A stretch of DNA of 60,964 bases, the filler included, from Dugesia japonica (Eukaryota): assembly GCA_001938525.1 (NCBI GenBank). It is 6 parts of 6 records of this genome, joined end to end, with 100 filler letters (N's around TTAATTAATTAA, not from the genome) between each part and the next. Parts side by side here need not be neighbours in the genome. Positions count along the whole stretch, not along the records: positions 1 to 11,196 come from MQRL01588277.1; 5 more parts are not named here. The stretch is one strand, 5' to 3'. The notes below the pieces were generated by a model that was not told where the DNA came from, did not search any database, and saw only the letters and a list, made by a program, of their open reading frames with translations. The position numbers were made by a program, and so were the translations under genes. This document shows positions 1,214 through 60,277 of this stretch, in pieces. Numbering within the stretch: position 1 is the first letter of the stretch; each line of letters opens with the position of its first letter.

Positions 1214-2692
1214 TTAATATACAATTTCGAAAATTATTTCATGTTCTAATAACGAATGAACTAAACCGACTTCGCCTTCTAAAATCTTTTCAAATTTTTC
1301 ATCAGTCACTTTTGGCAATTTCAAATGAAATTTAAAAATGATTCTTGATAGAAACAAAAATATATCCATATTTGCAATACTTTCACCTAAACACATTCGT
1401 TTTCCAACACCAAATGGAATTAAATTTTTATTAGGGATGTATATTGTTCTTGTTTCATCGAGAAATCGGTAAGGATCAAATAGATCAGGATTTTTAAATA
1501 AATTTTCATCACGAAAAATTGAACTCAAGTCTCCAAATATGATATCTTCAGGACAAAATTCATAACCCCTGAAAACACATTTTTCTAATACCCGATGATA
1601 CAATTTCGGGACTAAAATACAAAATCTTTGTACCTCATCAATAAATGAAAGTAACTTAGGGCAATCTTTCTTTAAATTCATGTTTATCTGTTTATAATCA
1701 TCTATTTGTTGTTTTAATTCATCTCTTAAATCATTTTGACTAGTTGGATATCGCGCCAACATTATACAACAGAATCCTAAAACACTATTGGTAGTTTCAG
1801 TACCTGCATTTTGTAAATCAGCCAATGATTGTACGATATTTAAAAATTTGAAATCTTCATCTTGATTCTTAAAAACATTGTCATCTTGATTGTTCCAAAA
1901 ATAATCGAATACGCATTTTGGAGATGACGATTTATTAAAATCTTTCAAACGTTTTAAGCATTTCATAGATATAAATTTTCGATTATTTTGAATGGCATTG
2001 AAATAATTGTCAACATTTTTAAAAATCCATCTTCCAAAACTTGACAGAAAAAATGCTGGCCATAAACCTACAATGTTAATAATGCTAGAGCGAGAAATAA
2101 ATCTAACATCAAGATAGTATTTTTCGAATTCCAAATTATCTTCATTTGGTTCATTAAAATTAAGGTAGCTTATTACATTAGAAATACGCTTCCCGAACAC
2201 AATGGGAGTTTTAATCGGAATATTTGACACATTTTCCAAATATTTAATTAAATTATCTGCTTCATCACAAATTATGATTTCAAATTCTTTTTTTCCCATA
2301 CCTAGATCCCGCAATGACTTTATGGCCAATAATCTATTTCGTTTCCAGATATCACCTTCTACAAATAAAATTCCTCGGTTTTCTCCAATAACATCATAAA
2401 ATCCGTCTTTTGGAAAGCCAGCGAAAAGTATTCCATTATCAACAAAAGCTTCACGTACTGTATCAATAGAAGCTAAAGTAATTATTCGTTGAGAACCAAT
2501 TTCTATTGACCAAATTTCACCATATTTCTTACTCATTTGTTTGAAAAAATCTATGTCTGACGTACTATTAATAGAAGACAATACAATTTTTAAAAAATCA
2601 ATAATTGGTATGCCTAATGGACCTGGAGGGTGATAACGTCTTTTTTGAATTTGTTTAATAGTTAAGTAAACGAAAATAAAAATAATAATCAC
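1214..2692 (-). CDS. Cytochrome P450, CYP2-clan-like, intronless over the visible length
   Basis: 492-aa ORF with N-terminal hydrophobic anchor, PPGP hinge, WKRNR C-helix, AGTETT I-helix, EVQR (ExxR), PYRF (PERF-like) and heme motif FGVGKRMCLG; the true ATG probably lies in the adjacent N gap. Confidence 0.95.
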   Translation of the reverse strand: MIIIFIFVYLTIKQIQKRRYHPPGPLGIPIIDFLKIVLSSINSTSDIDFFKQMSKKYGEIWSIEIGSQRIITLASIDTVREAFVDNGILFAGFPKDGFYDVIGENRGILFVEGDIWKRNRLLAIKSLRDLGMGKKEFEIIICDEADNLIKYLENVSNIPIKTPIVFGKRISNVISYLNFNEPNEDNLEFEKYYLDVRFISRSSIINIVGLWPAFFLSSFGRWIFKNVDNYFNAIQNNRKFISMKCLKRLKDFNKSSSPKCVFDYFWNNQDDNVFKNQDEDFKFLNIVQSLADLQNAGTETTNSVLGFCCIMLARYPTSQNDLRDELKQQIDDYKQINMNLKKDCPKLLSFIDEVQRFCILVPKLYHRVLEKCVFRGYEFCPEDIIFGDLSSIFRDENLFKNPDLFDPYRFLDETRTIYIPNKNLIPFGVGKRMCLGESIANMDIFLFLSRIIFKFHLKLPKVTDEKFEKILEGEVGLVHSLLEHEIIFEIVY

Positions 2693-3693
2693 AATTATTT
2701 GGAAAANNNNNNNNNNNNNNNNNNNNNNNNNNNNNNNNNNNNNNNNNNNNNNNNNNNNNNNNNNNNNNNNNNNNNNNNNNNNNNNNNNNNNNNNNNNNNN
2801 NNNNNNNNNNNNNNNNNNNNNNNNNNNNNNNNNNNNNNNNNNNNNNNNNNNNNNNNNACAAAAATAATTACTAGTCCATGTATAGTACAGACTTTATCAG
2901 TATTTATATTTTAAAATTACAATTTTATAAATAATTTATCAGTTATAAAATTTTAAATCTTACTGGAGGAAAAGGTACCTTGACAATTTTTAATTAATTA
3001 TAACACAAACTACGTTTTTATAACAATTTTTAAAAATATTAATTAAATTAAATTAATTTGATTTTAAATATTTATCTAGTGAAGTTTTATATCAAACGTT
3101 CTATTGGGATATGTTTGATTTCAAATGACTTGTATACAAATAAATTCATTTAATTCTGTGTGAAAATTCGTGTTAATTACTTATAATTCAGATGACGAAT
3201 TTGATTATATTATGTGGATCATTTTTAAACAAAAATAATTTTAAAATATTTATGTAAAATATGTTTTAAAATATTTTAGAGAAATAATTTTTACTGTTTA
3301 GCTTCATTTCTAATTAAACATGAAGTAAGTTACAATCTCATTAATGAAAATATGTAGTTTTGAAACAAATGTTTAGTAAAATAATGTTTCAATAAGCAAT
3401 TTATTTATGAACAAACGACAGCTATTTTTATAAAATCTAATTTTTAAACCGTTTTCTTGTATACTTCTTTGTTTTAAGTTTGATAAAATCAAATGAGTTT
3501 TATTATCAAAGTAGGATGAGTGACGAAAATTCTATTCCACTTAAAAAATACTGTTCGGTAGTCTGTGTTGAATATATAACCACGTTGATGGTTGAATTTC
3601 AATGAACTCGAATCAATATGTACTAAATTATTTTCATTTAATTTTTGTTCTAAAGATATCGAACAATTGATGATTTTGCTTATTTAATAGAGG

Positions 3694-6600
3694 GAGGGTT
3701 CTCCAAAACCTTTCATCCCGAGGGCCACATATACTATCAAATAGCAGATTGAGGGCCGACTATACACTCTATACAAAAACTCTGTTAAGAACTTTCTCGC
3801 AAATTAGCCATCTTACGGCTATGGAAAATCTTGCGATTCTGTATCTGTATTTTCAAACAAGTCTCTGAATAGTCTATGGTGGAGCCCATATAACCTTATT
3901 AAATTCTCCATCTTCAACACAGAAATCATTACACTGCTAATTTTCACATTTAAAGCATACAAAGCTTGCTGGGGAATAATACAATGCAGGATACTTTTAT
4001 GCAGGAACATTGGTTGTAGAATGTTTTTCTCATTACACATCTGCATCACTTATCAACTCAAGTCTTTCTTTTACACAACTCATTTCCTCCTTCAACAGTT
4101 AAACAACTGAGGTTAGTCCAGTCCAAGTTAGAATCAGCACATGTTTTTTCAATTTATTGAATATATCCTCTCCAGAAACAATACCATACTTGATATATAG
4201 AAAAGCTAGCTCTAGTATTATGTTCATATCTTCATCTACACTTTTAATGAAAACAAGCAATTGAAAGGTCGAACAGCTGTACAGAGATTCATCCATTGCA
4301 GCTGAAAAATTGTGAAACTTGCTTGAATTTTTCGTTCTTTAGTCACAATATTTTCATCAATATCTGCAGCATTGCAAGCAATGATATTTACATACAAATC
4401 AACATTTTTAAATTGTTTCCTCAGCCCACTTTCAACAAACATTCCTTCACTACTTCACCACTTGTAAACGGTTTTCCACTTTTAACCAGGACTCGGGCAA
4501 CTTGATAGCTGTCTTTATTTAAGGATTCATTTTTATTTGTGCATTTACTGAACTATGTCATCTGAGATGTAAATTGATTTTGTGATTAAGAAACTCTTAT
4601 GGCACATACTTTACTCCTCAATTGTGCATATTTCTTCTGATGTTTACTTTGACGATGACAACACAGGTTGTATTCTTTCATCACAGCCACGGTTTCGTTG
4701 AGATACTTTGGGGATTGTTGACAAAATAAATCAACAAGGGCGTGAGTTTAATAACAATTTTTTTTAGAATTAATAATCCAAATATGCCTAGTTATATGGT
4801 TATCTTTATATGACCTTAATATATTTATCATAGATATATTGATATTATATAAATATACTATATAGTCATCCTTATTCAATTAAACAAAAATGTTTACTTC
4901 GAAAATTTATATTAGTATAACAAATTAAACTCAATTACAAATTCAATTTAACAAGGTAATATTTTGACTCTCAGTTGTTCAATAACAAAAATTTAAAACT
5001 GTTTTACGAGTTTAATTAAGGGTCAAAATACATTAAAATGCAATAGTATTTATACTCTTACCACCAGGTACATATAAATTAATTCAGCAAAAATAATTTT
5101 TTTTCCGATATTCATTTTTTACATAAAATATTCCGGTAAAATTAAATATTTGAATTTTTTATTATTAAAATTTTAATTTTCATAATTATAAAATCTAAAA
5201 TGAAAATTTAATAATTTACCAACTTTTCAGTTTGTTTATCTATACTAATTAATTAATTAAATAATTTACAATAAGTTAAATTAAATCATAAATTAACAAA
5301 ATAAAATATTTATTAAAATGTTTATGATAGTACAGGTTAATTATGTACTAAATTATATTAAAATTATAATATTATGTTTGAATATTATTTTACAATGTAA
5401 ATTAACATTTTCCTATTAATTTATACATTAAAATTAATAAAATGATCAGAAATAAAAGCAGTACAATTAGCATAAATCAAATGTTATAATAAAATGGTAA
5501 TTTGGATCAGATCATATGACAGAATAATGTCATTTGAATTTGAATTGATTTATTGATCAATGTTACTTCACAGAATTATTTACAAGTTTATATTTTTATT
5601 GTTGTGTGGTGAATTCTGTGTTTGCTTAATTTTTTTGTAATGATTGTTGTGTGGAATTTGTATGGTTTTCCCAACAGTTTCATTGCAAATCACACGCAAT
5701 ACTTTCTCGCAGTATTTGATTAAGAAGTATTTCAAACTTCATTCTTCTCGAAACTGCCGACATTCATCGTTTATTTATCTTCTACTTTTCTCGGGCATTG
5801 ATGGGCACTAAAATATAGTGAAACTGAAAGTATCTTGCGCACATTTTACAGATATACAATGCAAGAATCTTACATACTGAATAAATTCCGATGAAAAATA
5901 TTATAGTTTCAAGGTCGAAAATTAATAACCCAATAATAAAAAATTCCAAATATTCAATTATAATAATTTCAAATTCACTATTTTAAAGTATCTCAAATCT
6001 TAAAACACCATTAAAACAACTCAAAAAATTTTGATAATTAATTTACAATAAGAAAAATCAATCGAAATTTAATAAAAATAAAAGCTTAAATCATTAAAAA
6101 ATTATCACACCTCATAATTACTATTTCCGACAGAAATGACAAATTTAAATAATTTAACAATAATATTCTTGACAACCGCCAAAAAATTACAAAAATCATA
6201 ATTTAATTCAAATAGCACCAAAAATAATCCTAAAGACAAAGTAAATCACTTTTTATTGTACATAAATTTTGTTCTAACAATTAGTTGCTAAATTTGTAAA
6301 ATAATTATATTTTTTTAGTGTACTTAAATTAGTTGCTTATAATGTTTTCTCTTCAAAAATTTTTGGAAAATTCTTGTTAAATTAACAACATTCCAAATGC
6401 TTTATAATTAAATACTTTAAAAGTAATTACGCAAAGGAAATTTTCACTAAATAAAATAGAGTACAACATGTTTTGCAATTAGACGCTAATTGATACCAGT
6501 ATCTCCTAATTGCAGCAGTCAACAGCGAATGGTAAACTGTATTCCATATAATCAACTCTTGAACAACTCTGCCACTGGATGGCGTTATATCATCTCATTG

Positions 6601-6842
6601 ACTGTGAATAGAAGTAGAAAAAGCAAGCAGTGAATAAAGTTTTCCAATGTAGTGGTCGGTTGGATAACACAACGTACTACTGGCACTTTTATTTTAATTC
6701 GATAAAAACTTAACATCCAATACGTAAACGGAGGCTGATCGTGGCAGGATAAGCGTAAGTTTCGGTAATTTTTTCCCAACGATAAAAAGGTCTTTATGGG
6801 CTGAATGAGAAGGCCTCGTGGGTCGTAATTTAGAGATCCTTG
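3694..6842 (-). mobile_element. Decayed hAT (Buster/SPIN-like, GTF2IRD2-type) DNA transposon, probably with nested insertions
   Basis: Imperfect TIRs GAGGGTTCTCCAAA (3694) and TTTAGAGATCCTTG (ends 6842), both flanked by AATAGAG (TSD-like); minus-strand transposase fragments at ~3930-4740 include GKPFTSGEVVKECL, AMDES and LHCIIPQQAL (CxxH region). Confidence 0.75.
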
Positions 6843-8375
6843 GAATAGAGAATTAAATAATAATTTCCTTTAAGTATTTCCAACAATACCAACATTGAAG
6901 TAGAACCAATCCCAATTGCAATGTAAATTCAACAGAAAAACCAGTAGTGAGTTGAGAATAAGAAATTGCAAAAGAATATTTGTGTTCTCAAATAACAAAT
7001 GTAAGATACTGTTGTGTTTCCACGACTTTTTGTACATGATATAAATTACTATATTACTCTAGGGATTAGAAGAATATTTTTTAGAACCGAAAATCATTTA
7101 CGACTCTCCAATGTTTGGAGTCATCTCGGANACTCTGCAATCTTTTTCTTCGAATCTAGTAAGCTAGAGTCTTAGTTCTTGTAGTGACTGATTATCAATT
7201 ACTATAATAATGAAAATAACCACAACATTCTTCATAATATTAAAAAATAATAACATTAATACCAGTAATGCCTATATCAAAAGGAGTCCTAATGCTGGTT
7301 GATAGTGGTAACACTATAAGGTAATTATTTCATTAGTTATTTCGTATGCATCACGTGGACTTTGGTAGATTAAAATTCCACAGAGTTATTTGCAGATCCG
7401 TCAATAAATTAAAAGTAGAATAAGTAAATGATCCTTTCAGCTCATAGTGTGTTGTCGAGCTGACTGCGGAAATAATTTCGTTGAGGGAATTGATGATAAT
7501 AGAATTGAGATTAGAGAAATTTGAATAATTTTGCGTTCATTAATAAAATATCCATGATTATTAAAGTTCAAGGTACAGGTTGGCATACGTGATAATCAGA
7601 AGATCGGTTAGCTATCTTGGAGAGTCCACGTTTTAGACACAAAACACTAGACATGTGTGAAAAAGTGACGAATTTACAGCCCTGCAGATTAATTTGGTGA
7701 CTCATCGTAGTTTACACTAAATAAAGTTTATTAAGTAAATATGTCTTCTTTTCATAAATATTGCCTAAACTTCAAAAATATAAATAGTTTATTATTAAAT
7801 TTAAGTTAAAATTGATTAATTCGATATTAAAACATAATTATTAATAAAAAATAATAATTTAAATTAATTTTTACATAAAAAATCCAAAAAAATAAAAACA
7901 AAGAAACGTATTAATCTTCAAAATCATATAAATCATACTTGACTTTTTACCATTATAGTTTATTGTTTTCATATGTGTTTTCCTGATTTTATAGTTTATT
8001 TATTTTATTATTCAATTATTAATAATATATATACAATAATAATTTTTATACTTTTATCCCTGGTTCGTATAAGGTTTTATTTCCTGAAAAATTTTATTCA
8101 AATCCCGGCTGAGCCGCCAAAATTCTTGTTGGGGTCCCACCTGAGTCGAGTAACCAGAGAAAGTGGCTGGGGAAAAACAGCCCTCAGGGGAACCCTTTCA
8201 AGAATTAACCCTACCATCCCTGTGGTAGGTTTTCAGTTTATGGCGGTTGACCTTACTCCTAATGGAAGGTACACACCGATAAACCTTTATTTCGGGTTCA
8301 ATACTTTTCCCTTATTGGTATTATTAAAGACAACAACAACAATTCTAGTTAAATACATTTATAACATAAAATGTT

Positions 8376-8758
8376 TTAAATCAAATCGAGCGCCCCCGTA
8401 TCCAACCATTGGTCTGGATCGGACACAGAGAAATTGAACGCGGCTATATCGTCATTATCATCCCATTGTAATATTNNNNNNNNNNNNNNNNNNNNNNNNN
8501 NGTCGGCGATATACTGTTTGAGAAATTCGATCTTTCTCAACAGTATTTGTTTATTCTCTGCCTCAAGGGCCTTGGTTTGGGCTGCTAGATGCGTTTGTTT
8601 TCTTACGATCAGATCTAACTTTTTTATAAGTTGATCACGCTGATTGAAATGTCTCATAAGGGCCTTATCAGTTTTACGCTTTAAATGACGTTCGACCAGT
8701 AAGCGGCTCATAATTCTATGGCACCTCCGGATACTGTTGGGGAAGTTAATTCGGGGCA
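8376..8758 (-). CDS. Orphan cassette copy 1, ORF-D (basic/coiled-coil, unknown function)
   Basis: Open frame of ~127 codons with higher GC than flanks; starts at ttcag|TG CCC; contains an N gap. Confidence 0.5.
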
Positions 8759-8874
8759 CTGAATGAAAAGTATAGTGAATTTGGCAAAAATCAAATTTAG
8801 AATTAAAGTAATGACTCAGACAAAGTAGGACAAAATTAATTTATTAGAAACAACTAAATGATAGGTAGAGTAAC

Positions 8875-9233
8875 TCAAGACCGATTCGTTTGAGAGCCCT
8901 TATCAATCAAGAGGGGTGGTAGAGGCATCGTGGCTCGTAACTTCCCTATGTTATCCAACAACTGGCTTTCCCTTTCTTGGTAATTCTTGATCATTTTGGT
9001 AAGAGTCTCGACCTGGGACTTCCACACCCGCTCTTGATTATGGGTGGCATCCATCTCTGCCCTAAAATTTAGGCATTTACGCTTGCATCGCTTTACTTTA
9101 GCGTCCACCGTGGCGATTTCCGCTTCCCATCGCCGTTTCGCCAAGTTATAAAGATCTCAAGTCATCTCCTGGTCATCTTTATCTTCTCGTGTTTTCTTAG
9201 TATAGGCCTGGAATCTATTTAAAGACGAATGCA
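8875..9233 (-). pseudogene. Orphan cassette copy 1, ORF-C (HSSLNR...KRRWEAEI coiled-coil)
   Basis: Starts at ttcag|TG CAT TCG; one in-frame TGA aligns with TGG in the homolog at 53711-54059. Confidence 0.65.
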
Positions 9234-9472
9234 CTGAAATACAAATGGGGTTTAATGAAATAAAAAAAATTTTCTTAATACTACTAATATCAGATCAGTT
9301 GGTCACCTTACTTCCACATTAATAAATGAAAATATACGGCCAATCCCTTTTCACATAACATAAAAGAAATAAAAGCCTAATTTAAATTTTTCCACGAGAA
9401 TTCTTGTTCATAAAGAAAAAAAAATTTATAACAAAACAAAAATAGAACACTTATTTATTATTTTCAACAACA

Positions 9473-9840
9473 CTAAACATTGGATGATGGAGGGTTATTA
9501 TTATCGGGATTGGGGGCGGTATTTTCCGCATCCGCTACCCCATTTGGCTCTCGGACTCCCCAGGGCAGATTAGCGATAAATGCCTGTATTGCTGGAGCGG
9601 GGGGAGGAGTGGTTGGTTGTTAGGAGAAAGTAGTTGTGTGGGTGCGATCAGGGCCGGTCCACTCTCGATATCTTTGTCTTTCACCGAAATCATTAATACG
9701 CCCCACGATAGACTCGACCGGGGGTAAGTTCTAACGATCGACGAGGATTCCGGCGTCACGATGATGGGGGTTGTGACATCTTCGCAGGATTAGCCATCGG
9801 GTCCTCCTATCCACGACACGTATTCAAACTGATTCCATAT
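9473..9840 (-). pseudogene. Orphan cassette copy 1, ORF-B (DRRT...NPHH.DAGILVDR.NL...WTGPDR...AFIANLPWGVREP)
   Basis: Manual translation in one frame with three internal stops; homologous to 53166-53465 and 58561-58841; starts at ttag|AT ATG. Confidence 0.65.
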
Positions 9841-11196
9841 CTAAGATCAAAATAGAATGAATCAAACTTAACTATAGCAATTTGGAACCTAAAAGGCAAC
9901 AACACTAAATGAACACAATTTAACATTTTATTTCCGTGTATTAAGATTAACTTCAAAGGGAAACATAATGCGTTCATTAAAATTATAGTAATACGAGGTG
10001 CTGTATTGCAATAGTACTTTTGGAAAACCTGTGATATATAATACTGAAGAAATCCTAAATTTACGAATGTTACAAAAAGAAAAATATATTAATTATTTTA
10101 ATCAAAATTTTGTCGTGAATTGATTGATATTTAAACTGANNNNNNNNNNNNNNNNNNNNNNNNNNNNNNNNNNNNNNNNNNNNNNNNNNNNNNNNNNNNN
10201 NNNNNNNNNNNNNNNNNNNNNNNNNNNNNNNNNNNNNNNNNNNNNNNNNNNATTTCTTAGGGCTCGTTACTAAATCCACAGATTAATCTGTTATACCACG
10301 AATTCACCTTAAAATTAATGCTGACACTTTCCATTCAAATTTTCTTGGATGAGAGAAAAATCAAATTAATAAAACAATGTCTAAGACGATCGTCTTATTA
10401 AAATTGTTGTAAATTGAATCTCCATTCGAATATATCAGGAATGTGAAATTTAATTCGTTTAAATTATGCGGTGTTTAATTCCCATGGAATAAATAAATTA
10501 CCTTTATTTATTAACTCTAATTTTATGATTAACGAAAAATTAATAGAACGTTGATTGTAAATTCCGGGTTTATTTCTCTTTCTTTTAATTATTTCACTAG
10601 CGTTGAACTGCCGCACTTTGCGGTTGCTAGGAGATGCTCTTATCAAGGTGATCATTTTATTAGATGGTTGTGACTTATTTACTGCCTGTGTGTTGAATCG
10701 ATATTCCACATGACTCACCCGTCGGTGCCTACATTCTACTAGTGATCGTTATATCGCTAACCCGGAATTTTATAGGTCGTTACATGCTCCCTGATGTCAA
10801 AAAGGAAAATTCGTATCGGCTACTTATCTTGTGATTATGTGGAATTATTACTATCAAATGCTTTTATCTATCTATCTCGAAGGGAATTTTGGACAATATG
10901 AATTAATTTTTATGATTGTCTACTTTTGTGAACAAAAAAAATAAAATGGTTGTTAATATGATAATTTTCGCTGGAGGATAATATGTGTTGTGAGGTGATA
11001 TTTATTGTATTTTTTAAAAACAATATAAATATAAAAATGAAATTTTACTGATGGTCAGTGGACTGTATTTATTCTCGTAACTCAAATTTCATTCGGACAT
11101 ACAAACATATGGGATACAGACAATTAAATGTAAGTATAGTGAGAATTAATTAAGATTTAGAAAATAACAATTATTTAACTAGTATATGTATTTCAT

Positions 11197-16410: not shown

Positions 16411-16701
16411 TGAATAAACCATTTTTTTTAAAATAAAATGTTTTAAAAGCAAAATTTCAAAACTGTTGTTCTTCTATTGATTACGAATTATCTAAACTTA
16501 AAAATAGATTTTCTACTTTTCATATAATTTTCTTTATGCATTATACGTAAATCCCATGTATTTTATAATTTGGTTTTGTTTTTTGTTTTCCATTATAGCT
16601 TGTTGTTAACATTTATATTGCTTAATTAATTATTTTTTAGAATTCATTTAATATTAAAGCTTTGATCAAAATTTTGGTTGTTTAATATTGATATTGGATA
16701 A

Positions 16702-16738
16702 CAATTCAATATTTCGACCTTGTCTTCGTCAGGAATTG
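16702..16738 (-). ncRNA. Minimal type I hammerhead ribozyme (Penelope-associated)
   Basis: Minus strand CAATTC-CTGACGA-A-GAC-AAG-GTC-GAAA-TA-TT-GAATTG: stem I CAAUUC/GAAUUG, intact core boxes, stem II GAC/GUC, palindromic AUAU helix III. Confidence 0.7.
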
Positions 16739-16887
16739 AAAAAATCCAAAATTTTGATCTAAGTTTTTATATTAAATGAATTCTAAAAAACTACCAATGG
16801 TTATGTCCAACAATTATTCTCGCAATAATTTCAATTGTAAAATAATTATTTTTTATTTATAATAATTAAAAATTATAACATTTACAG

Positions 16888-23839: not shown

Positions 23840-24400
23840 AGTCTACTAAATACATCTATATTAAATACATGTCAAAGAAAATTGGAGAGATGATAAAAAA
23901 ATGATAGTCGGTTGGAGACAGGTCTCGGGAGTATAAGGGATGAGGCAGACTTTCAAATTATAAATCATTAAATTTCTGTTTTGCGATAGTTTTGTGACGT
24001 GTTGACGGGCATTGTCGTGAAGAATAATAGGAGGTTTTCTGTTAAGTAATGCAGCGCACATAAATTTCCATTTGCTGTGTATTTCGTCAATTTTTTGACA
24101 ATATTTTTCCTGCCGTTTTCCTTGCTTTAAATACATTTTCCTTGATTTAAAAAGTTTTAAAGAACGAGACCGGCTGTGAACTACCAAATCGTCACCATTG
24201 TTTTCTTTTGATGCAATTTTGTCTTTGAAAATGATATGGGGCTTTGCCTTTGTCCAACCATTGCAATGCCCGCTTTCTGTTGTCGTATACAATCCATTTT
24301 TCGTCGCAAGTTACAATACACTCAAGAAATGGATTGGTTTTATTTCAAAACAGATTTGCAAGGCAGATCTCGTAACGCTGGATAAGTAAGACGTAGAACG
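23840..24400 (-). mobile_element. mariner (DD34D) transposase remnant
   Basis: YDN motif, ILHDNARQHV, and a frameshifted PY(S)PDLSPTDYHFF-like motif. Confidence 0.8.
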
Positions 24401-26344: not shown

Positions 26345-27641
26345 CAGAGTGTAACCAATTTAAGGTTACATTTTAAATTTTCTATAAAAAAAGTTAAAGG
26401 AATGAAATGTAGCAATATATTTATTTACTATGATAGTGCATATATTCTGGTTTAACAATGAAATATAATGTCATGCAAGGGACCTCATGTTGCTGCATAG
26501 CAAGTACCCATTCTTTTACAAAAGTTTTCTATGACATTGCAGCACTTTTGTGGCTTAATTTCACCAATATCATAGATGATGTTCTCCTTAAAATCAACAA
26601 TTGTTGGACGATCGCTAATATACACCTTTTCTTTTAAATAACACCAAAAGAAAAATCTAATAGCATTAGATCGCAGGATCTGGGCGGCCAATTGATGTTT
26701 ACATTTCGAGAAATTGATCTTTCGCTAAATCGTTCTGTTAATAGGGTAATTGTTTCTTTTGCCGTATGAGATTTGGTACCATCCTGCTGAAACCACATGT
26801 TCTGGGTATCTATAGTTTTCAATTTATGAAACAAAAATTTTCCAATCATATTTCGATATCGAGCTCCGGTAACTGTTACAAAATTCCCAGCTCCATTCTC
26901 AAAAAAATATGAACCAATAACACCACCCGCCCAAAAACCAAACCAAACATTTACCTTTGGTGAATAGAATTGTTTTTGTAGTATTTTATGTGGGTTTTCA
27001 TTGCCCCTAATTCTACAATTCTGTGTGTTCACAAATCATCCTAGTTCAAAAAATTCTTCGTCGCTAAAGATCACTTTTTGGAAAAATTTTTCATTTTCAT
27101 TCATATTTTCAATGACCCATTTACTGAATTTACGGCGTATTTCAAAGTCTGTTGGCTTTATTTGTTGAGTTATTTGAATCTTGAATGCCTCAAATTGAAA
27201 ATCCACAGGCAAATTTTTGAATAAAGTCTTTCATGGAATGGATAGTTGTTGTGAACGACTACAGATTGACATTTTTCGTTTCTCACTCACACTACAGCTG
27301 CAATATTTGTTTCAGAGCGACCACTTTTATGATATTCTTGGCGTCGTTCATCTTTTATCGAGCCACATTTTTTAAATTGTTTGATAACTTTTTGAATTGT
27401 CACATATGACGAACAATTTTCTCTTCTATATTGACACTTAAATTTTCTCCGAACTTCGGTATAACTTTCCCGTATTTAAAATAATTTTTTACTATAAATA
27501 CTCTTTGTTCAATGGTATAACGATTCATTTTTAAAAACCGGATGAATTACTATTGATTATTCAACAATTATTGATTTAATAAAACCAAATAGAAATAAAT
27601 GGAATTAAATTTAAAATGTAACCTTAAATTGGAACACCCTG
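26345..27641 (-). mobile_element. Full-length but inactivated Tc1/mariner element of the DD41D (rosa) family
   Basis: ~35-bp TIRs CAG(A/G)GTGT..CCAATTTAAGGTTACATTTTAAATTT with TA on both sides; transposase from ATG 27528 (MNRYTIEQRVFIV), IFSDE, WFQQDG...WPPRSCDLMLLD with 41 residues between the 2nd and 3rd catalytic D; stops and frameshifts. Confidence 0.92.
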
Positions 27642-33789: not shown

Positions 33790-34230
33790 GCAAATTGTTA
33801 CCTGCGAAACGACTTCGTCACATGAACTCACACAAGTAGCTGTCTAACATACTTCTAGCTGTACCAAAGTGTCGTCTGTTCCTGCTTTTGGCGTAGTTCC
33901 ATGAGCCTTCAATATTCTGCGTATGAGCACCTGTCACCGGATCAACAAAATTTTGAGAATGGTTGACAGTTAGATGTTTGTAGCCAAAGTTTTGAATACC
34001 ATTATAGGATGGCCATATATCCGATATAATAGTAGTTCCTGGAAGAATTGCATTCTGTATAATTGGTAACCATGTTGCTGCAGATCTATCGGGTACTCTG
34101 TATAAAAAACATTGTTTGGTTTCTCAGCAAATTCCTCCAAAAACCCATTGAGTAGGGAATACTTGACCAACATTCATAAACCTGCTTTCATCTATTTCTA
34201 CCGTAGTACCTATTCCACCAATGTATACCN
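33790..34230 (-). mobile_element. Merlin (IS1016/IS1595-like) DDE transposase remnant
   Basis: Manual translation EIDESRF...QWVFGGICRETKQCFLYRVPDRSAATWLPIIQNAILPGTTIISDIWPSYNGIQNFGYKHLTVNHSQNFVDPVTGAHTQNIEGSWNYAK...LDSYLCEF; this frame is not in the ORF track. Confidence 0.88.
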
Positions 34231-34968
34231 NNNNNNNNNNNNNNNNNNNNNNNNNNNNNNNNNNNAGGTAAATATTCGAATCACAAACAGTAGTATGACC
34301 AATACCTAACTCACGTTCACAAAAGTCGTAAGAAGTAAGCTCATGGCTCCATCAATAAATAAATAAGATAATCTGCCTGTAGGATAAGTGCGTTCCCTTT
34401 AACCAAGTGCCAACTTTCACTTGAGTTTGAGATCTGCAATTAACCTTATTGCATCGCCACCTGTCTTCTTTATCAGATAGATTTAAAATCATAACATGTC
34501 AATTACTACACTGTTAATTACTACACTGTCTGTTAATATGCAAAATACCATGCTGTTGTCACTGCTAACTTTGTCATGTACCAGAGTTGACAACAAGAAA
34601 TTTAAGGCAGCGATCGATGCAAACAATGATGAAAGTTTATACAAGAAAATCTAGTAAGTACATTAACCTATTTTTAACTGGCTAATTACTGTTCCAAATA
34701 TGAAGCTAGTGTGTGTTACCATTTATTGAGTGATTTGAGATTAATTAATAATTTTTAAGAAAATTGCGGGGAAAACTGGATAAGCACCGAATATTGTATT
34801 TTTAAATGGTGAATTTTACTTTTTACAATCCATTTTAATCTAAATTGAAAAAGAAACTTTTCAAAATATTAAAAAAGTTTACACTAATTAATAAATAAAC
34901 AAAATATTTAATTACAAATTTTAAAATACATCTTGATTATTTCTGATGTGAAAAAAATCAGAAAATAC

Positions 34969-35494: not shown

Positions 35495-36120
35495 CCGAAT
35501 GTCTAATTAAAACAAAGCGTTGCGATGGCTGGACAACGGCTTTGGTTCAGTCTGGTGAATAAGCTGCATGGCGTAGCATTTCCCATAGAAGCTCCTTTGG
35601 CATTTCCTGGACTATTTGTGACGTGTGGCCGGGCGATGTCATACAAAACAATGACTTTATGTTGCCTTCTCTCATACTCTGGTCGTTTTTCACGCAATGC
35701 CTTGCTCAGATAGATTATCTGGTCTAGGTGAAAGTCCCTACAACTATTTGACCAGTTTTTAACAGCTCATGATGGATTACACTCTTACGGTGCCACCAGA
35801 TGAACTTTCGATAGTTGGTTTGGAGGCTGGTCAGAGTTGCAAATTGTTTTTCACCATTTTTTATTAATAATAAAATAATAAAATTAATAATTATTTTCTG
35901 TTAAGCGTAACAATTTTATGCAGAAAAAATTTTCTTTTTACCAAGTTATCAAAATTTCACTTGTAATCATTCGTCTTTCAACGTCTCTTAACTTGAGTTC
36001 CTTAGGTAGCAACATTCCTTGCTTGTAAACCTTTCCCATGGCTTTAAAACGTCGACTTATCGGTGATCAACAAACATTTAATGATTTGGCAAGATAATAT
36101 AGATTTTGACACGGATCTGC
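35495..36120 (-). mobile_element. mariner transposase remnant
   Basis: EKRPEYERRQHKVIVLYDIARPHV and a YSPD-like motif; degenerate. Confidence 0.7.
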
Positions 36121-50397: not shown

Positions 50398-52858
50398 TTA
50401 TAATAAGTGGATTTATCTTATAAATAATTTTATTGGTAATGGATTTATTTTATTGTAAAATTTAGTCATGAGTTGAAATGATTGGCGTGTGTGTATTTTA
50501 GAAATCAGTATAAATACTGATTGTTTCTTGTAAAATTTTGGAAATTTGTGAACTGAGAAAACCTGTCTCTACGGCTGGCCTTTTCTCTGTGTCAATAAAT
50601 TATAGCGCTTAGTTAACTCTAAATAAAATATTTCAAAAGGTTTTATTTTTNNNNNNNNNNNNNNNNNNNNNNNNNNNNNNNNNNNNNNNNNNNNNNNNNN
50701 NNNNNNNNNNNNNNNNNNNNNNNNTTATAGTATTTACATATAAACCTCAACAGTAAAAATCAATTACACACAAGTAAGAGAACGAACCATAAATATCTTT
50801 TGTTGAGTTATATACCCAACATAAGTATTACTTAAACAACATCCAAAAGCCTAACAACCCAACATAATGCACAAAATTATAATATAATAAGTAATGAACT
50901 CTTTAATCAGAATGTCAAAAAAATAAAACAAATTGAATAATAACTATCAACAAAAACTATTTTAACAAATTTATTAATAACGGATCAAACCAAATAAAAT
51001 TTATTGTTGATTGGGGATCACGATTGTTTTTCATAAATCGTTAAATTTAGGATTTTCAATGATAATTCGAAATCATAATTTAGCCTTTTTGGTAATTTTT
51101 TTAATCATACAGTTAGAGATTTTTAGTTATAATTGAATTAGGATTTTTAAAAAATAATTTAAATAGTCCAGTATAGGTTTCTCTATAATTATTTTAGATC
51201 GAACGATTTGAGGTTTTCTGAAATTTTCTATTTTTATTCGGCGGTTGCCAAATAAATACATTTTTATAATCCAATTTTCAAAATTTGGTTTTATAATTCT
51301 ACTTTGTTCTGTTTTCAAAGTTTCAATTTTTTGGCAGTTGCCAAGTTTTTTTTAATTGAATCGCTTTATATTATATTATTAAAATTTTGGATAATGATAT
51401 TTATAATAATACACATAAGTATAACTATACTAGTAAGTAGTATGCTTTGTTTGTTGATAATGAATATTTTAACACTGAATAATAAAATTATTTGATGATT
51501 ATATTAGTTATTAAAATGAATTGAATATAAATAAAAATGGTTAAAACATCAAACAATTAGGAACCAGTGTTTTATTTGCCCACCAGTAACTATGCTATAG
51601 CATTACATGAACGTAACTTCCGTAAAATAAATATGAAGAAATATTCTTTTCTATTATTGGTGACAGGATAACATGTTGTAAAAGTTAAGCAGCAATTCTA
51701 AATTCCTCAAGAGACGGCTTTTTAAATCCACAATAGAAGTCGAATCAGCCGCAGCAAATCGTTACCTCCATAAAACATTTTGTATTTACCAACTTGTTTG
51801 AGCCAAAGTAATTTTGCCAATCATCACCAGTTAAATCCCTTTTCTNTGTAACTCCACTATGATTTAGAAAATAATTAATATGAAATTACTGTTCTCATAA
51901 GCCATGATAGAATCGATAATAAGTCATTCTCTTGCCAACAATCGTTATTAAATACTACAGATGGCTGATGAATATTGCAACACTAAAAGATCACTGATGT
52001 TAGTTGCAAATGGAGTTGCCCAGTAGTTCCTTCGCGTTGTTTGTGAAGTGATTCATATTTAAGACACATTGAGTCACCAATTTCCAGTAACACTCACTTC
52101 AGCNATGGATGATAATTGTGTGCAAATGACTGGTACTATTGTGTTAGTGACATAACGTCTCAGTCTGACATAATTATTCTGATGTATATGCGCAGTTGTT
52201 GTCATCTAAATTAAAATTTTTTGTTTTTGTACATAGAAAATCACCATTAGAATCCACCCAGTTATTGGAGTGACCAGTAATTATCATTCTCAAATTAAAC
52301 TTATTATTATAATCCTTCGCATCACTGCTACTATTTTTATTAATAGTATTACAGCGACCCTGGGTTACCACTAACATCATGTATTTTTTAACAGGACTAC
52401 TATTAAAAATATTGTTGGAAACGTTATTTTCATCGATATCATTATTTGTAATTATTATTATTATTACTTAACATCAATTTTGTCACATTCAATATATAAT
52501 CATAATTATTACACCTCTCGTTCATATTAAATCTAGGATTATGAGGTTGCTATTATTAACATATTTTTTTGGTGGTGCTATCCACAGCAATGGGTGCAAA
52601 GCCTTGTTACTAGCGTTATCATCACTTCGGAGTATCAGTGTTAGCCTTACCACCATTCTAATCGTCATTAGGGTGATGATATTAATTACATTATTCGGAA
52701 TAACAACATCCTGGTCAGGTCAGTCACGGTATTCGAGAATATTATCCCAACTCACAATATCTATTAATAAAACATAGATATGTTTTAACGGTTGTTACCT
52801 TCAACGTTATCATTGTTAAAAACTTCTTTTACCTTATTATTCTAATGCTATTTAAGGA

Positions 52859-53055
52859 ATGCCTGCCGAGCTAAGAACCATGTTACGCTTCATCTACAAG
52901 GCACGAAGATCTTCCTGTCGGAAGCAATAATAGCTCATATACTCTTCCCCACCATGATAGAACATCCAGACGCAACCGACTTGAGTTGCTTCCGAGAAAT
53001 GTCTTCACTGCCATCGGAGGTAGACTTAGACGATGATTTATTATCCCTCAAGTAA
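52859..53055 (+). pseudogene. Orphan cassette copy 2, ORF-A (EHPDxTDLxCF motif)
   Basis: MPAELRTMLRFIYKARRSSCRKQ/AHILFPTMIEHPDATDLSCFREMSSLPSEVDLDDD; homolog at 58241-58425. Confidence 0.65.
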
Positions 53056-53165: not shown

Positions 53166-53465
53166 TGAATTTCATCTGGGAAAGTGTGGAATAGGCGTAC
53201 TCGAATGATGATTTTTCGACGCCATGTGAACCCCCACAATATGGATGCTGGCATTTTAGCAGATCGCACGAACTTGCCGCCAGTACTACCAAAATTGGAA
53301 TGGTCCCCAGAGTCTAGTAACCCAGTTTACATATAGGACTCCTGCCCCAACCCCGGCGGTAAGTGCGTTTATCACAAATCTACTTTGGGGCATCAGGGAA
53401 CCGACTTCCAATGAAGATGCCGATAATACAGCACCCGCAGCAAATGTCGAGAACTGATTCTGTGA
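53166..53465 (+). pseudogene. Orphan cassette copy 2, ORF-B
   Basis: ttag|TG AAT TTC ATC TGG; RRTRMMIFRRHVNPHNMDAGILADRTNL/...YYQNWNGPQ...PAVSAFITNLLWGIREP; frameshifted. Confidence 0.65.
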
Positions 53466-53710: not shown

Positions 53711-54059
53711 TGCATTCATCCCTGAATCGATCGGTGGCTCTCACGAAAAAGATTCGAAAACAGTGAGGACATAGAAATGTCCTGGCATCTTTATAAATTA
53801 GCGAAGCGAAAATAGGAGGCCGAAATAGCCGCAGCAAATGCCAAGGTAAAGCAGTATCGGAGTAGAAGCAGAGGCCTCCCATGCTCAGGAACGCGCCTGG
53901 AAATACCAGGCAGAATATTTTGCTGATATCATCTGGTCCCTCTATGACCATGAGCATGAACTGGTAACCGACGTGCTTGAGTTAAGGAAAAGTATCCCAC
54001 TGGAACCGTTAATGATTGAGAAGGCCACACAATTATGCCTTACAGTGAGTGGCTGCTAG
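53711..54059 (+). pseudogene. Orphan cassette copy 2, ORF-C
   Basis: ttcag|TG CAT TCA; HSSLNRS...EMSWHLYKLAKRK*EAEIAAANAKVK...HAQERAWKYQ...LRKSIPLEPLMIEKATQ, aligns with 8875-9233. Confidence 0.7.
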
Positions 54060-56256
54060 TAAGTCAATGAATTAATGTAGTCCAGTAACTATCCCCAAAT
54101 CTAATACCATCATGAATCTGCTTCTGCAATTATTGATTTTCTCTCAATATCATGGAATAAAATTGGGCAATTTGCAAAGATTTAAGTATAATGCGGTTAT
54201 TGTCCTGTGATTTCCAATTATCAGTTTATGAAATTTATCTACAATGTGAATTTTGAGTTCAATAAAATATTTTTTGTTTGGTTTTATTTGTTGGGATCTA
54301 GATGATTAATATTAGTTACGATGATTAACACTTTGTTTTAATATTGTTTAGAAATTTTGTAATTTTGATGTATAATTTAATGAAGTCTGATTTTGAAAGT
54401 AACTTAACTGGTGACCACGCCGAAAATGTTAATTTATTGACACGCCAACAACGAAAATTAATTTTAGAAGCCTTGNNNNNNNNNNNNNNNNNNNNNNNNN
54501 NNNNNNNNNNNNNNNNNNNNNNNNNCAAAGATGCTTCAGAAGCAACAGTATGGCTGAAAGAAATCGAAGATATGGAGTATGATTCTAAGTTGGACTGCAT
54601 AGAAACTCGCATACAATAGCAGCAACCACAGAAAAAAGAATCACTATAAATACAAATATCTAAAAACACTAAAACACACTTAAAACTAAAAATTACTTTA
54701 CAACAATTTGGTTTAAAAACTTATTTATGGAAGAGCTATTTGAAGAAATATGTAATCAGAAGTGAACAATTCCAACAATTATCTACGAAGTAATTTACAG
54801 TTGTTTTTTGAAGTAGTCAACCAAAATCATCCACCATCGTAAACTGAGATGCCATTAAAGGAAAATAAACAAACAAATTGTTATGGAAGAAATCCGATAG
54901 TTCTAAATGATGAATTTGAATAACAAAAAGACTGAGGCAGCAAATATTTAATGAGGAAAGCGAGGGACATAATCACGAACGATGTTAATGACGAAGACAA
55001 AGAATGATTAATGATGAGATAGAAAGACAATGAGAAACGATGTTGTAACCGTTCGATGTCAGAGATGAAAATGTCTAATGGTGAAGTTGCATGACAAAGA
55101 CGAATGATGTTTAAGAACAAGGCAGATGTTCGACGACAAGTTGAGTAAAAGCTGGATGAAATAGATTTTTTGAATAAAGATGAAGTATGATGGTAAATTG
55201 AGTTCACGTGTTAGATCGATTAGCCATTTATGCTTTTGTGAGTAACGAAGAAGTGTAAGTTATAAAATAAATTGGTTCCAGGCTACTAAAAGAAATCAAA
55301 ACGATTTTGCAGATGTGGACAACTGAAAATGAGTAATTATGAAACGATTTAGAAACTAGAAGGGAGATAAATGAGCAATATAATAAATTAGATATAAAAT
55401 GTTGAAGTTTTATTTGGTGATGATCGAGGATAGCTCTTTTGTAAGAATGTTCTTCATTTAATGATAAATTGTATAAAAAGATGTAGCAACAAAGGAAGTA
55501 GAGTAATTATATTTATTATTAATTCATTTTATTTATTTCTATTTTATATTTTTGAAATCATAATAATGAATTCTTGTGAGTTTTGATTAATTGATTAGAA
55601 TTAAATATCATATGATGTTATCGTTAATAATGGATTAACTGAATTTACTTTTATCAATTTTTCTTTTTATGAATCATAATTGAAGATAGAAATTAATGAT
55701 TAATTGTGTTGATCGTGATTTAATATTGAAATTAATAAATTATACGCCAGTTATGTAGCTCTATTATTATTGATTAATAATTTTTAGTTAATAAGTCATT
55801 TATGAATTATTATTTAATAGAAATGTAAAAACCAGGCATAGTATAGCAACTTAATTTCCTATCGAAAAGGAATTTTTATTAGTCAAAATAGATTTCGTGA
55901 GATTATGTTTTATTGAAATAATAATAGATTAATGGCATTATATTGAAATGAAGAGATATGAGAGATCTTAAATTATTAAATCGGAATTTTATAAATAATT
56001 ACTACGATAATAATTCATCGATATTTTCTTAAAAAGTAGATTAAACAGACATTTTCTAAAATGAATTAAAATTAAATCGTCAGTTCATGAGAGTAACAAG
56101 GGATAAAGCTTTCGCGTCTCCTTAATCGGATAAGGGATAAGATTAAAATCTGAATAGCTGAATTAAAGTATTAAGAAACGATATAAAATGTTAAGACAAT
56201 AAAAATTTATTAGTTGTTAATATAATATACTTTTGTAACATTGTGTTAATGCAGAT

Positions 56257-56655
56257 ATGGTAAAGAAATTTTCAGTAGAGGCCACAAGATCTATACACTG
56301 CTGGATATTCACTACACCACCACCAAACAATATACCGGTACTATTTGACTCATGGGGTGAGGTCAGAACTGATAGAGATCCGTTGATGGTCAACATGGCC
56401 AAGCTAAGAAATAGGGGGACAGCAGGCCAAAACCTTCCATAATGAATATGTTATTTGGAGGAGCGGGTAGCATTTGAAAAATACCTAGCTCGACATAACC
56501 AAGCCCTGATAGACATGCTATGTCGAATCTCCAATCATTTGCGAAAACCGCCGACCATCACTGATAGAAGAACAGTCGTCGAGAGGGGTTTATTGGAGCA
56601 CAGCCACGCCAGAAAACAACTAGAGAATGGAATGTCTCGTATTTGGAAGATCTAG
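56257..56655 (+). pseudogene. Further orphan ORF of the same style (unknown function)
   Basis: tgcag|AT ATG start; the ORF-track entries 56257-56442 and 56455-56655 are in the same frame, separated by stops; higher GC than flanks. Confidence 0.4.
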
Positions 56656-57750: not shown

Positions 57751-58240
57751 TTTAAGGATAAATTGATTTATATTAAACAAAATCTGTATTACAATTATCA
57801 AATAAAAGAAATTAATAAGAAATATATCCTTTTATAGCAAACCACTCACCAAATTCCATCCAAAATTTACATATAAATCCAAATCATACGGGATTGACGA
57901 TCATAAGTAAATGTGAAATATAATTCCAATAATTGGAGCTAATAAGAGAGATGTTTCATTTCACTCAATAATTAAGAAATGTTTCCCCGATTTTCTATGA
58001 GTTGTAATGATAACAGATCAGATCGGCCATCTAGACACACCATAACACTTAGATGGTCTCATTTTATTACATGCATGCTCACAGGAAAATCAACACCTCT
58101 TACTAGACCTGTCAAGCTGACTCATTTTTTACTTACTCTGGTACTTACTTACTCCGAGTACTTAGTGGCCTTCCCATAAGTTTCAACATTTTAATCATAA
58201 CTATATGGGTTGATCTTAACCAGCCATCTAATTATAGATT

Positions 58241-58425
58241 ATGCAGGCAGAATAAAAAAGGCACTACGCACGATTTTGAGACAGCGTAAGACCACCAGAC
58301 GGAAACAACTGATCGGATACTTGTTGTTCCCACACTTAAAGGAACATCCCGATGAGACAGACCTACAGTGTTTTGTCGAGATGTTCCCACTGAATTTTCA
58401 GGTGGACATAGATGCCGAAAACTGA
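58241..58425 (+). pseudogene. Orphan cassette copy 3, ORF-A
   Basis: atag|att ATG CAG GCA GAA; MQAE/KKALRTILRQRKTTRRKQLIGYLLFPHLKEHPDETDLQCFVEMFPLNFQVDIDAEN. Confidence 0.65.
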
Positions 58426-58560: not shown

Positions 58561-58841
58561 TGGATCATAAGTGGAAAATTCTACTTGACCAAAGGACCGG
58601 TCGTACTATTTTTAAGAAATATAAAAATCCATACGATTGAAATGCCGGTGTCCTAGTAGATAGAGCAAATTTGTCGGTTGAGACTGCAGAAGAGGAAAGA
58701 GAATGAGATGCGAACGAGCGGCACGCCTACTATACCTGGAATGGGCTTGACCGCAAGCGTGCAGTGTACCATTCAATTACGACTAACCAATATGGCGCCA
58801 GCGCGGAACCACAGATCACCCGGGAATGGCATAGTTACTGA
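58561..58841 (+). pseudogene. Orphan cassette copy 3, ORF-B
   Basis: atag|TG GAT CAT AAG TGG; DQRTGRTIFKKYKNPYD*NAGVLVDRANL...ERHAYYTWNGLDR. Confidence 0.65.
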
Positions 58842-59208
58842 TAGCTCATACAATGATAATGAAATGATGTTCTTATATTTTTTTTTAAAAAAAGATTAAA
58901 ATGATGAGGCTAGTCGATGGATCAATCGTCATTCGGAGGGGGATGTAAAGAAATAATATGTGAATGTTAAAATAATTATCAAAATGAATTATAATTCAAC
59001 GAAGATTTGCTAAGGAGATAGAGAATCCAACTCTATCTACAATGACAAGTGATCGTAGATCGGTTGAGACTTACAGTAGGAGGTTAACATTCAATGCATT
59101 AATTAGATTAACCTTGAATTATAATGAGTAGATATTATTGAATATTATCAATAGTTGCATTATGAATTGCTAAATTTGATCATGAAAATTATTATTTTTG
59201 TATCTAGA

Positions 59209-59750
59209 ATGTCTTAGTCTATTACCAGAGCAGTAGCCAACAGATCATTAAAAGCTGAAAGATGTTCTTTCCCGACGAATGTTGCAAACACCATGCCAGA
59301 TATGTGGGATTCTCTTGGTAAGTTTGAAACTGATGCGAAACCATGGTGGATTGCGCAGGACCGCATCCGTCAGAAGGATCTTGATCTCCTAATGATGAGG
59401 AAATTGTTAATTCGACAGAAAAGATACTGAGACAGAAGCTAGTAATACTCGATAGCCTACAAAAGAGAGTGGAACAACATGAACATGCATATAAAAGTCG
59501 ACTCGCGGATATGATGGCCCAGCAAGAACATCGTGAAAAAGAGCTGTTCATTCGATTTACAGAGTTGGCCCAACAAATACGACTGATACAGAAATCACGC
59601 TCCACACAGATCGAAGCAGAAGAATACACTAAGATGTCTGAGCGATTAACAGCTAAAATAGAGGCTGCGCTTCAACAAGTCCTTGTACCATTAGATGGAA
59701 CTCTTGATATCCACGAAACTACTGTGATTTATGTGTTAACAGCAATATAG
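59209..59750 (+). pseudogene. Orphan cassette copy 3, extra coiled-coil ORF
   Basis: ctag|A ATG start; one early stop and a frameshift lead into the 93-aa heptad-rich ORF 59469-59750. Confidence 0.5.
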
Positions 59751-59939: not shown

Positions 59940-60277
59940 TGTCTAGTGCCAGAAAGATAACCGCTGATACTTCAATAGCGGACATTCGGAAAAAGTGGGC
60001 CTCTACAAAAGAAATTGCAGCTAGAGATAGTCGAGCTACAACGAAGAACTCTGTTCTGCACGAAAAGAACACTAAGCTACAGGAAGGAGATCTTGCTCTA
60101 TCGCAGACATGTTGAGCGATGGCCGACATTATCAAGTCGTATGCAGACAGAGAGAGCATAATAATCGCGACTGTCCGAACTCTGACACAAGTATACAATT
60201 CCGAAAAAGAAGTAAAAATAAAAGAAAAAACAATTCAAAGAAGTCATCTATCTGGACTAGTGATTGGTTTTGTATAA
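59940..60277 (+). pseudogene. Orphan cassette copy 3, divergent ORF-C-like coiled-coil
   Basis: gtag|TG TCT; RKKW...IIKSYADRES versus KRRW...MIKNYQERES in copy 1, with spacing differing by one residue. Confidence 0.45.

What the first reader, a model, noticed from the sequence alone, without database searches (positions are those of the whole stretch)
8376..9842. Cassette ORFs begin at a 3' splice site, with an apparently split A|TG start codon
Seen: six ORFs begin AG|TG in the coding frame (8758, 9233, 53166, 53711, 58561, 59940). Four more have ATG 1-3 nt after an acceptor-like AG (9840, 56255, 58238, 59208). In ORF-B the genomic M-E-S-V-(W, now TGA) of copy 1 aligns exactly with (x)TG-N-F-I-W and (x)TG-D-H-K-W in copies 2 and 3, so the AG|TG occupies the initiator position. 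Each ORF ends in its own stop before the next AT-rich spacer and acceptor. Inference: the array is polycistronic and resolved by alternative splicing of one shared leader exon ending in A, which creates ATG only after splicing, resembling viral common-leader expression. The flatworm spliced leader ends in AUG and would be out of frame with AG|TG, so an element-encoded leader is more likely.
Basis: partly seen in the sequence, partly recalled or inferred. Interest (0 to 1): 0.8.

Follow-up and report, generated by a model that had tools for sequence, protein, structure and literature searches.

The report
Gene array borrowing its start codon
Decayed copies of what is likely a mobile element in an AT-rich animal genome carry rows of small genes, several of which lack an ATG and begin with TG right behind a predicted splice site, so splicing to a shared leader ending in A likely supplies the missing letter, a trick known from one fly retrovirus gene but not found in print for a whole array.

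Summary
All ten sites have AG directly before the stated base (three on the minus strand). TG follows 7 of 16 blind-scored acceptors in the cassette regions against 4 of 69 elsewhere (p 5e-4; regions chosen after the fact). The ORFs are real, selected coding frames in three diverged, decayed copies: codons straight after AG|TG are conserved with silent changes, no in-frame ATG lies upstream (6 of 6), GC drops at each terminal stop, and an independent 60-aa relative of ORF-A has the same start and end. TG sits where another copy has ATG, and the AG-to-ATG spacing varies between orthologues, which argues against a coding leader. The leader itself was not found: RNA data gave low cover and no spliced junction among the rows shown. 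A weak candidate donor (A|GT) follows a primer-binding-site-like motif. The carrier is probably an LTR retroelement, unproven. Splice-made start codons are known (gypsy env, AT|G); an A|TG array serving four or more unrelated ORFs was not found in print. Best reading: shared non-coding leader ending in A (0.55). New variant of a known kind; interest 0.5.

The parts
9473..9840 (-). ORF-B, copy 1; acceptor AG then ATG after 2 nt; three internal stops
   Evidence: homologous to 53166 and 58561 (z 26.9 and 16.0)
8875..9233 (-). ORF-C, copy 1; AG|TG; one internal stop; coiled-coil-like
8376..8758 (-). ORF-D, copy 1; AG|TG; no visible break but a run of N inside
   Evidence: no second copy in the window
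8127..8316 (-). purine run followed by a GC-rich block of about 177 nt ending in CA; LTR-like or LTR-end-like (inferred, no second copy)
   Evidence: sequence; no match to the other copies' flanks
8097..8119 (-). primer-binding-site-like motif: starts TGG, in register with a tRNA 3' end including the T loop (register recalled)
   Evidence: loose pattern: 2 matches, 0.72 expected, so not significant alone
8046..8052 (-). candidate leader donor: first GT after the PBS-like motif, preceded by A, at a GC-to-AT step
   Evidence: weak, A precedes 32% of GTR in the window
7568..7716 (-). further AG|TG site 335 nt after the candidate donor; frame has a stop at codon 2 and an in-frame ATG three codons later
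   Evidence: membership uncertain
6585..6838 (-). acceptor-led frame with a hydrophobic C-terminal stretch; weakly similar to the stretch before ORF-A copy 3
   Evidence: (z 8.5); membership uncertain
52537..52777 (+). acceptor, ATG after 4 nt, open 78-codon hydrophobic frame directly before ORF-A copy 2
   Evidence: membership uncertain
52857..53055 (+). ORF-A, copy 2; ATG 2 nt after AG; frameshifted
53166..53457 (+). ORF-B, copy 2; AG|TG; frameshifted
53711..54059 (+). ORF-C, copy 2; AG|TG; frameshifted, internal stop
54380..54790 (+). multi-copy frame with a gag-like look (by eye, recalled motif); PBS-like TGG motif at 54409-54419; highest RNA read cover of the contig
   Evidence: no family or structure match
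56255..56655 (+). ORF-X; ATG 2 nt after AG; two internal stops; probable relative of ORF-E
   Evidence: (z 4.9)
58238..58425 (+). ORF-A, copy 3; ATG 3 nt after AG; frameshifted near its start; core shared by many diverged relatives in public runs
58561..58841 (+). ORF-B, copy 3; AG|TG; two internal stops
59208..59750 (+). ORF-E; ATG 1 nt after AG; early stop and frameshift; coiled-coil-like C half
59940..60277 (+). ORF-F; AG|TG; one internal stop

Best explanation
These are decayed copies of a multi-copy element, likely an LTR retroelement, carrying an array of short genes, each behind a predicted 3' splice site, that are likely expressed by cis-splicing of one shared non-coding leader ending in A, which would create AUG at the AG|TG genes. 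One promoter would make the leader; the spliceosome would pick one acceptor; at B (two copies), C, D and F the junction itself would form the start codon, while A, E/X and copy 1 of B use an ATG a few bases inside the exon. Each ORF probably ends at its own poly(A) signal. Unspliced RNA would not translate the TG genes. Shown: sites, frames, selection, stops. Inferred: splicing, the leader, its last base, the element class.
For: TG enrichment at blind-scored acceptors. ORF-C copies keep the six residues after TG with four silent codon changes, 25 of 40 nt identical downstream against 13 of 40 upstream. 20 of 33 listed differences to relatives in ORF-B fall on third codon positions of the TG frame, p 0.001 (from the rows shown). 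No in-frame ATG upstream before a stop at 6 of 6 TG sites. TG in B copies 2 and 3 lies four codons before the Trp position, as the ATG of copy 1 does. AG-to-ATG spacing differs between homologues (2 vs 3 nt in A; 2 vs 1 nt in X/E), so no reading frame is carried in from upstream. P0001, a 60-aa protein from a public assembly, 55% identical to ORF-A copy 3, starts with Met at the same place and ends within one residue of it. GC falls across the terminal stop in 10 of 11 ORFs and AATAAA follows within 60 nt in 7 of 11 against 27% background. Two contigs of relatives align from 59929, 11 nt before the ORF-F acceptor, and diverge further upstream. Precedent for splice-made AUG in an LTR element.
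Against: No spliced junction or shared loose 5' end at any acceptor in the rows shown; several contigs cross acceptors unspliced, in runs whose RNA status is a guess. The leader is not identified; the only candidate is weak and lies downstream of copy 1's B-C-D. G is the usual last base of a donor exon (recalled), which would give GUG. 9 of 11 sites are in the same phase, as alternative last exons of a coding leader would be. No gag, pol or integrase match was obtained for the flanks. The P0001 start comes from an automatic gene call.
Confidence: 0.55

Rival explanations
1. Alternative last exons of a coding leader: a common first exon supplies Met plus a short peptide and splices in phase 1 to each ORF (like ZAM env, or mod(mdg4)/lola in layout, recalled).
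For: [quoted passage not shown]
Against: Gives no reason for TG at +1/+2; two ATG-led sites are out of phase and homologues differ in phase; ATG of B copy 1 and TG of copies 2 and 3 are in the same register.
Confidence: 0.15
2. GUG initiation: either the leader ends in G or the RNAs are unspliced, and the genomic GTG is used as a near-cognate start.
For: The genomic codon is GTG at all six sites by construction; a textbook donor ending in G lies upstream of copy 1 at 10718; contigs cross acceptors unspliced.
Against: Four unrelated ORF kinds all choosing a weak start codon has no clear advantage (inference); T-rich, AG-free tracts before each site need splicing to explain them.
Confidence: 0.12
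3. The array is an operon resolved by host spliced-leader trans-splicing.
For: Flatworms use SL trans-splicing for operons; ORFs are closely spaced, each with an acceptor.
Against: Parasitic flatworm leaders end in AUG; such a leader gives 0-31-residue out-of-frame peptides at all six TG sites and is in frame at only 1 of 11 sites. The host phylum is not established, so another leader is not excluded.
Confidence: 0.08
4. Consecutive phase-1 internal exons of one long protein, the terminal stops being decay.
For: Shared phase; the copies are decayed; strong donor-like motifs occur near the end of ORF-C copy 2.
Against: Orthologues end at nearly the same place, GC drops at the stop, P0001 ends there too, and ORF order after B differs between copies.
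Confidence: 0.04
5. Chance: AG before TG picked after the fact in AT-rich DNA, with ordinary ATG starts lost by decay.
For: Only four independent ORF kinds; regions chosen after the fact; all copies are decayed.
Against: AG|TG is kept in both ORF-C copies and in two ORF-B copies that are otherwise far diverged; blind scan p 5e-4.
Confidence: 0.06

Closest known systems
Drosophila gypsy / springer-subclade env (errantiviruses)
   Same: Start codon assembled across a splice junction in an LTR element: AT from the 5' site, G from the 3' site (PMC2585583 passage; bioRxiv 2023.08.03.551782 passage).
   Different: There the split is AU|G and serves one gene, env. Here it would be A|UG and serve four or more unrelated 60-180-codon ORFs; no env similarity; junction not shown.
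Common-leader splicing of adenoviruses and complex retroviruses
   Same: One 5' leader, many alternative acceptors, one ORF each (recalled; search listing only).
   Different: Their ORFs normally bring their own AUG (recalled); here half do not.
Burro / GYPSM1 giant gypsy-like elements of planarians
   Same: LTR elements with accessory ORFs in AT-rich flatworm genomes, decayed in some species (PMC6431247 passages).
   Different: No Burro domain (MATH, BIR, BCL2, ankyrin, RT, integrase) was detected here; the passages read say nothing of splice-led ORF arrays; Burro sequences could not be compared.
MDG1-group sORF1/sORF2 (412, Stalker)
   Same: Small accessory ORFs in LTR retrotransposons, one helical, one hydrophobic, with a poly(A) site after sORF1 (PMC11952523 passages).
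   Different: Those RNAs are unspliced and the ORFs carry their own start; two ORFs, not six or more.
Flatworm SL operons
   Same: Closely spaced ORFs, each behind an acceptor (PMC12582326 passages).
   Different: An SL ending in AUG is out of frame at all six TG sites.

Membership tests
Splice-created start codon (gypsy env type) | ORF lacks an in-frame genomic ATG at its conserved start | tested here: met
   6 of 6 TG sites
Splice-created start codon (gypsy env type) | 3' splice site directly at the partial start codon | tested here: met
   by sequence only:
Splice-created start codon (gypsy env type) | Donor exon supplying the missing base, shown by junction reads | tested here: inconclusive
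   low cover, truncated tables, no junction shown; weak candidate donor
Ty3/gypsy LTR retroelement | Paired LTRs with target-site duplication | tested here: inconclusive
   no LTR pair in the window; contigs are only about 10 kb
Ty3/gypsy LTR retroelement | Primer binding site after the LTR end | tested here: inconclusive
   motifs at 8119-8097 and 54409; loose pattern expected 0.72 times by chance; no tRNA set to compare
Ty3/gypsy LTR retroelement | gag, protease, RT, RNase H, integrase domains | tested here: inconclusive
   no Pfam or PDB match in the decayed flanks; likeness by eye only
Burro elements | Giant ORF1 with MATH/BIR/BCL2/ankyrin domains, over 30 kb with LTRs | not testable with these tools
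   no genome held; primary paper not held
Maverick/Polinton | Cassette physically inside a PolB/integrase/capsid element | tested here: inconclusive
   Maverick-like remains at 39.5-49.3 kb lie on another contig, across the gap at 50298-50397
SL trans-spliced operon (flatworm) | SL AUG in frame or harmless at each acceptor | tested here: not met
   out of frame at 6 of 6 TG sites
SL trans-spliced operon (flatworm) | SL-bearing reads at the acceptors | tested here: inconclusive
   none in the rows shown, cover too low

The most novel reading that the evidence does not exclude
A family of animal retroelements keeps a whole battery of accessory genes headless in the DNA and arms them one at a time by splicing to a single leader whose only coding contribution is the A of AUG, so that splice-site choice is an on/off and which-gene switch and the full-length genomic RNA cannot make these proteins.
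Probability: 0.5. Interest if true: 0.68.

Novelty: new variant of a known kind. Interest (0 to 1): 0.5.

Why it matters
If true, it extends a trick known for one gene (gypsy env) to a gene array, with a different split point, and gives a plain rule for finding genes that annotation misses because they have no ATG. It would also reveal a family of small unknown proteins, present in many diverged copies in public runs of this animal, and might explain what fills the extra length of giant flatworm retroelements. One 5' RACE or long-read experiment settles it.

Tried and rejected
No genome is held for the window, so copies could not be counted. Run search: 24 runs listed, no RNA holder on record. 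Raw RNA reads of three runs covered the contig thinly (146, 17 and 25 reads laid) and showed no joint; the fourth run was contigs with even cover, probably DNA (281 loose-end rows hidden). Four contig runs on 57950-60300 showed no splice-type joint and no shared loose end at an acceptor (128 loose-end rows and 146 difference rows hidden): no evidence either way. Word-index protein searches were blank for ORF-B and ORF-A. The profile search gave 3 hits, of which P0002 and P0003 are long repeat proteins judged chance. DNA of relatives was not obtained: metagenome scans blank, viral scans blank or one 15-residue match judged chance, so the contig that encodes P0001 was not read. Pfam gave only sub-threshold coiled-coil hits. 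The ORF-A model (3 helices, pLDDT 69.5, three sequences) matched nothing at E 0.001 in PDB or BFVD. The protein atlas gave no answer. No Rfam family or tRNA gene. The three post-cassette stretches do not align with each other. Strong donor motifs occur at 15 places on the sense strands, too many to single out a leader. Earlier findings: none.

Full report
Setting. The window is AT-rich animal DNA (GC 15-40% per kb) in contigs of about 10 kb joined by 100-base gaps at 11197, 19523, 28710, 39426 and 50298. It holds a cytochrome P450 frame, EGF-repeat and kringle-like exons and Maverick-like remains. The P450's four closest relatives (43-52% identity) are unnamed; named ones are at 28-36%. A planarian host is my inference, not a result. 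No genome is held.

Observation. All ten sites are as described; the first three are on the minus strand. There are three diverged copies: copy 1 (minus; B, C, D), copy 2 (plus; A, B, C), copy 3 (plus; A, B, E, F), and ORF-X at 56255. Of 171 block pairs compared, the top scores are B1/B2 (z 26.9), A2/A3 (22.2), C1/C2 (19.0), B1/B3 (16.0), B2/B3 (14.5), then 6838/pre-A3 (8.5) and X/E (4.9). Each acceptor has a T-rich tract, GC 15-30% upstream and 38-51% downstream. TG follows 43 of 720 acceptor-like AGs in the window. A first blind scan gave 51 sites, recovered 9 of the 11 cassette acceptors, and all 7 of its TG sites lay on the sense strand in or just after the cassettes. A second gave 7 of 16 against 4 of 69, p 5e-4. 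Regions were chosen after the fact and the six reader sites are four ORF kinds, so the true strength is lower, but the pattern is not plausibly chance.

The frames are real. ORF-C copies share the six residues after TG with four silent codon changes; identity is 25 of 40 nt after the AG and 13 of 40 before it. In the conserved block of B1/B2, 22 of 44 differences are at third positions; 20 of 33 differences listed against relatives in public runs fall on third positions of the ORF-B frame that starts at TG (p 0.001; only rows shown were counted). Walking upstream in frame from each TG meets a stop after 6-27 codons with no ATG (6 of 6). In ORF-B the ATG of copy 1 and the TG of copies 2 and 3 stand four codons before the Trp position; copy 2 shifts frame right after it. 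All copies are decayed; only D shows no break, and it contains a run of N.

They are separate genes. GC falls across the terminal stop in 10 of 11 ORFs (not F); AATAAA follows within 60 nt in 7 of 11 against 27% of AT-rich background starts (about p 0.01 by my hand count, control loosely matched; none found after B3). A search of 1.84 billion proteins with the two ORF-A copies gave 3 hits; P0001 (60 aa, E 8e-13, one public contig of 1041 nt) is 55% identical to copy 3, begins with Met where the window has ATG after the acceptor and ends within one residue of the same stop. Many contigs in four runs share only the 50-nt core of ORF-A (58341-58391) and diverge on both sides, so the family is large and old.

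What supplies the start. A leader ending in AUG, as parasitic flatworm spliced leaders do (PMC12582326, passages), yields out-of-frame peptides of 0-31 residues at the six TG sites. A coding leader in phase 1 fits 9 of 11 sites but explains neither the TG nor the differing AG-to-ATG spacing between homologues (2 vs 3 nt in A, 2 vs 1 nt in X/E). A non-coding leader ending in A explains both: TG is fixed where the junction must make AUG, and spacing is free where an ATG follows. A leader ending in G would give GUG and cannot be excluded from DNA.

The direct test failed for lack of data. Three raw RNA runs gave 146, 17 and 25 reads on 10 kb and no joint; four contig runs gave no splice-type joint or shared loose end at an acceptor, with 128 loose-end rows hidden, and several contigs cross acceptors unspliced in runs whose RNA status is a guess. 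No difference is listed at 58559-58562 in relatives of 86-88% identity that cover it, but the tables are cut. Two contigs align from 11 nt before the ORF-F acceptor onward.

Carrier. After ORF-D come a purine run, a GC-rich block of about 177 nt ending in CA, and a TGG motif in register with a tRNA 3' end (8119-8097; register recalled; the loose pattern is expected 0.72 times by chance). The first GT after it (8051) is preceded by A, sits at a GC-to-AT step, and 335 AT-rich bases later comes another AG|TG (7716), whose frame stops at codon 2. This is the arrangement a retroviral major donor would have, but A precedes 32% of such GTs, and it lies downstream of B-C-D. After ORF-C of copy 2 there is a second TGG motif (54409) and a multi-copy frame with a gag-like look. 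Neither flank matched Pfam or PDB, and no LTR pair was found. That two of three cassettes lie just upstream of a PBS-like motif raises the untested idea that the array sits inside a long LTR, as would suit the giant planarian elements (PMC6431247, passages); tandem or nested insertions explain it as well.

Comparison. Splice-made start codons are known: gypsy env takes AT from the donor and G from the acceptor (PMC2585583, passages), and env is spliced to an AU dinucleotide in the springer subclade or to short peptides in others (bioRxiv 2023.08.03.551782, passages). MDG1-group small ORFs are unspliced (PMC11952523, passages). PMC8532177 and PMC11410931 (passages) say nothing on this. Searches (listings only unless named above) found no A|UG array; the primary Burro paper and its supplements could not be read and may bear on novelty.

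Verdict. Observation confirmed; acceptor-led stand-alone ORFs well supported; shared leader ending in A is the best explanation (0.55) but unshown; element class unproven. New variant of a known kind, interest 0.5.

Noticed in passing
window 39530-49300, minus strand: Decayed Maverick/Polinton-like element: PolB-like frames, endonuclease VII-like, adenain-type protease, capsid-like, integrase and chromodomain pieces; weak Pfam hits only; includes near-identical 223-300 nt repeats that may be assembly artefacts.
   Followed up: partly
window 1214-2893, minus strand: Apparently intronless cytochrome P450 (CYP2-like) whose closest relatives are unnamed, 43-52% identical.
   Followed up: partly
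window 52537-52777 plus; 6585-6838 minus; 58000-58230 plus: Hydrophobic frames directly before ORF-A in copies 2 and 3 and after copy 1; the one at 52537 is open for 78 codons. Possible small membrane proteins of the cassette.
   Followed up: partly
window 10720-10775, minus strand: TATA-like box, about 50 nt, then a textbook donor with G as the last exon base, 900 nt upstream of ORF-B copy 1 but across a run of N; the motif also reads as an AP-1 site.
   Followed up: no
window about 6446 and 5806, minus strand: Two more AG|TG sites after T-rich tracts downstream of copy 1; frames short or broken; not picked by the blind scans (seen).
   Followed up: no
window 51700-52470, minus strand: Asn/Asp-rich broken frame of unknown kind upstream of copy 2.
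   Followed up: no
window 60300-60600 and 57300-57600, plus strand: Stretches with very high summed contig depth in run X1; possibly conserved parts of a multi-copy element or low-complexity matches; no family match.
   Followed up: partly
window 23861-24310, 26485-27035, 33818-34351, 35503-35766: Broken DNA-transposon-like frames (mariner/Tc1- and ISXO2-like by eye, recalled) and a short interspersed repeat family near 12449, 16625-16871, 36663-37036, 39059-39211.
   Followed up: no
window gaps at 11197, 19523, 28710, 39426, 50298: Each 100-base gap holds the same 12-nt palindromic filler, a scaffolding mark.
   Followed up: no
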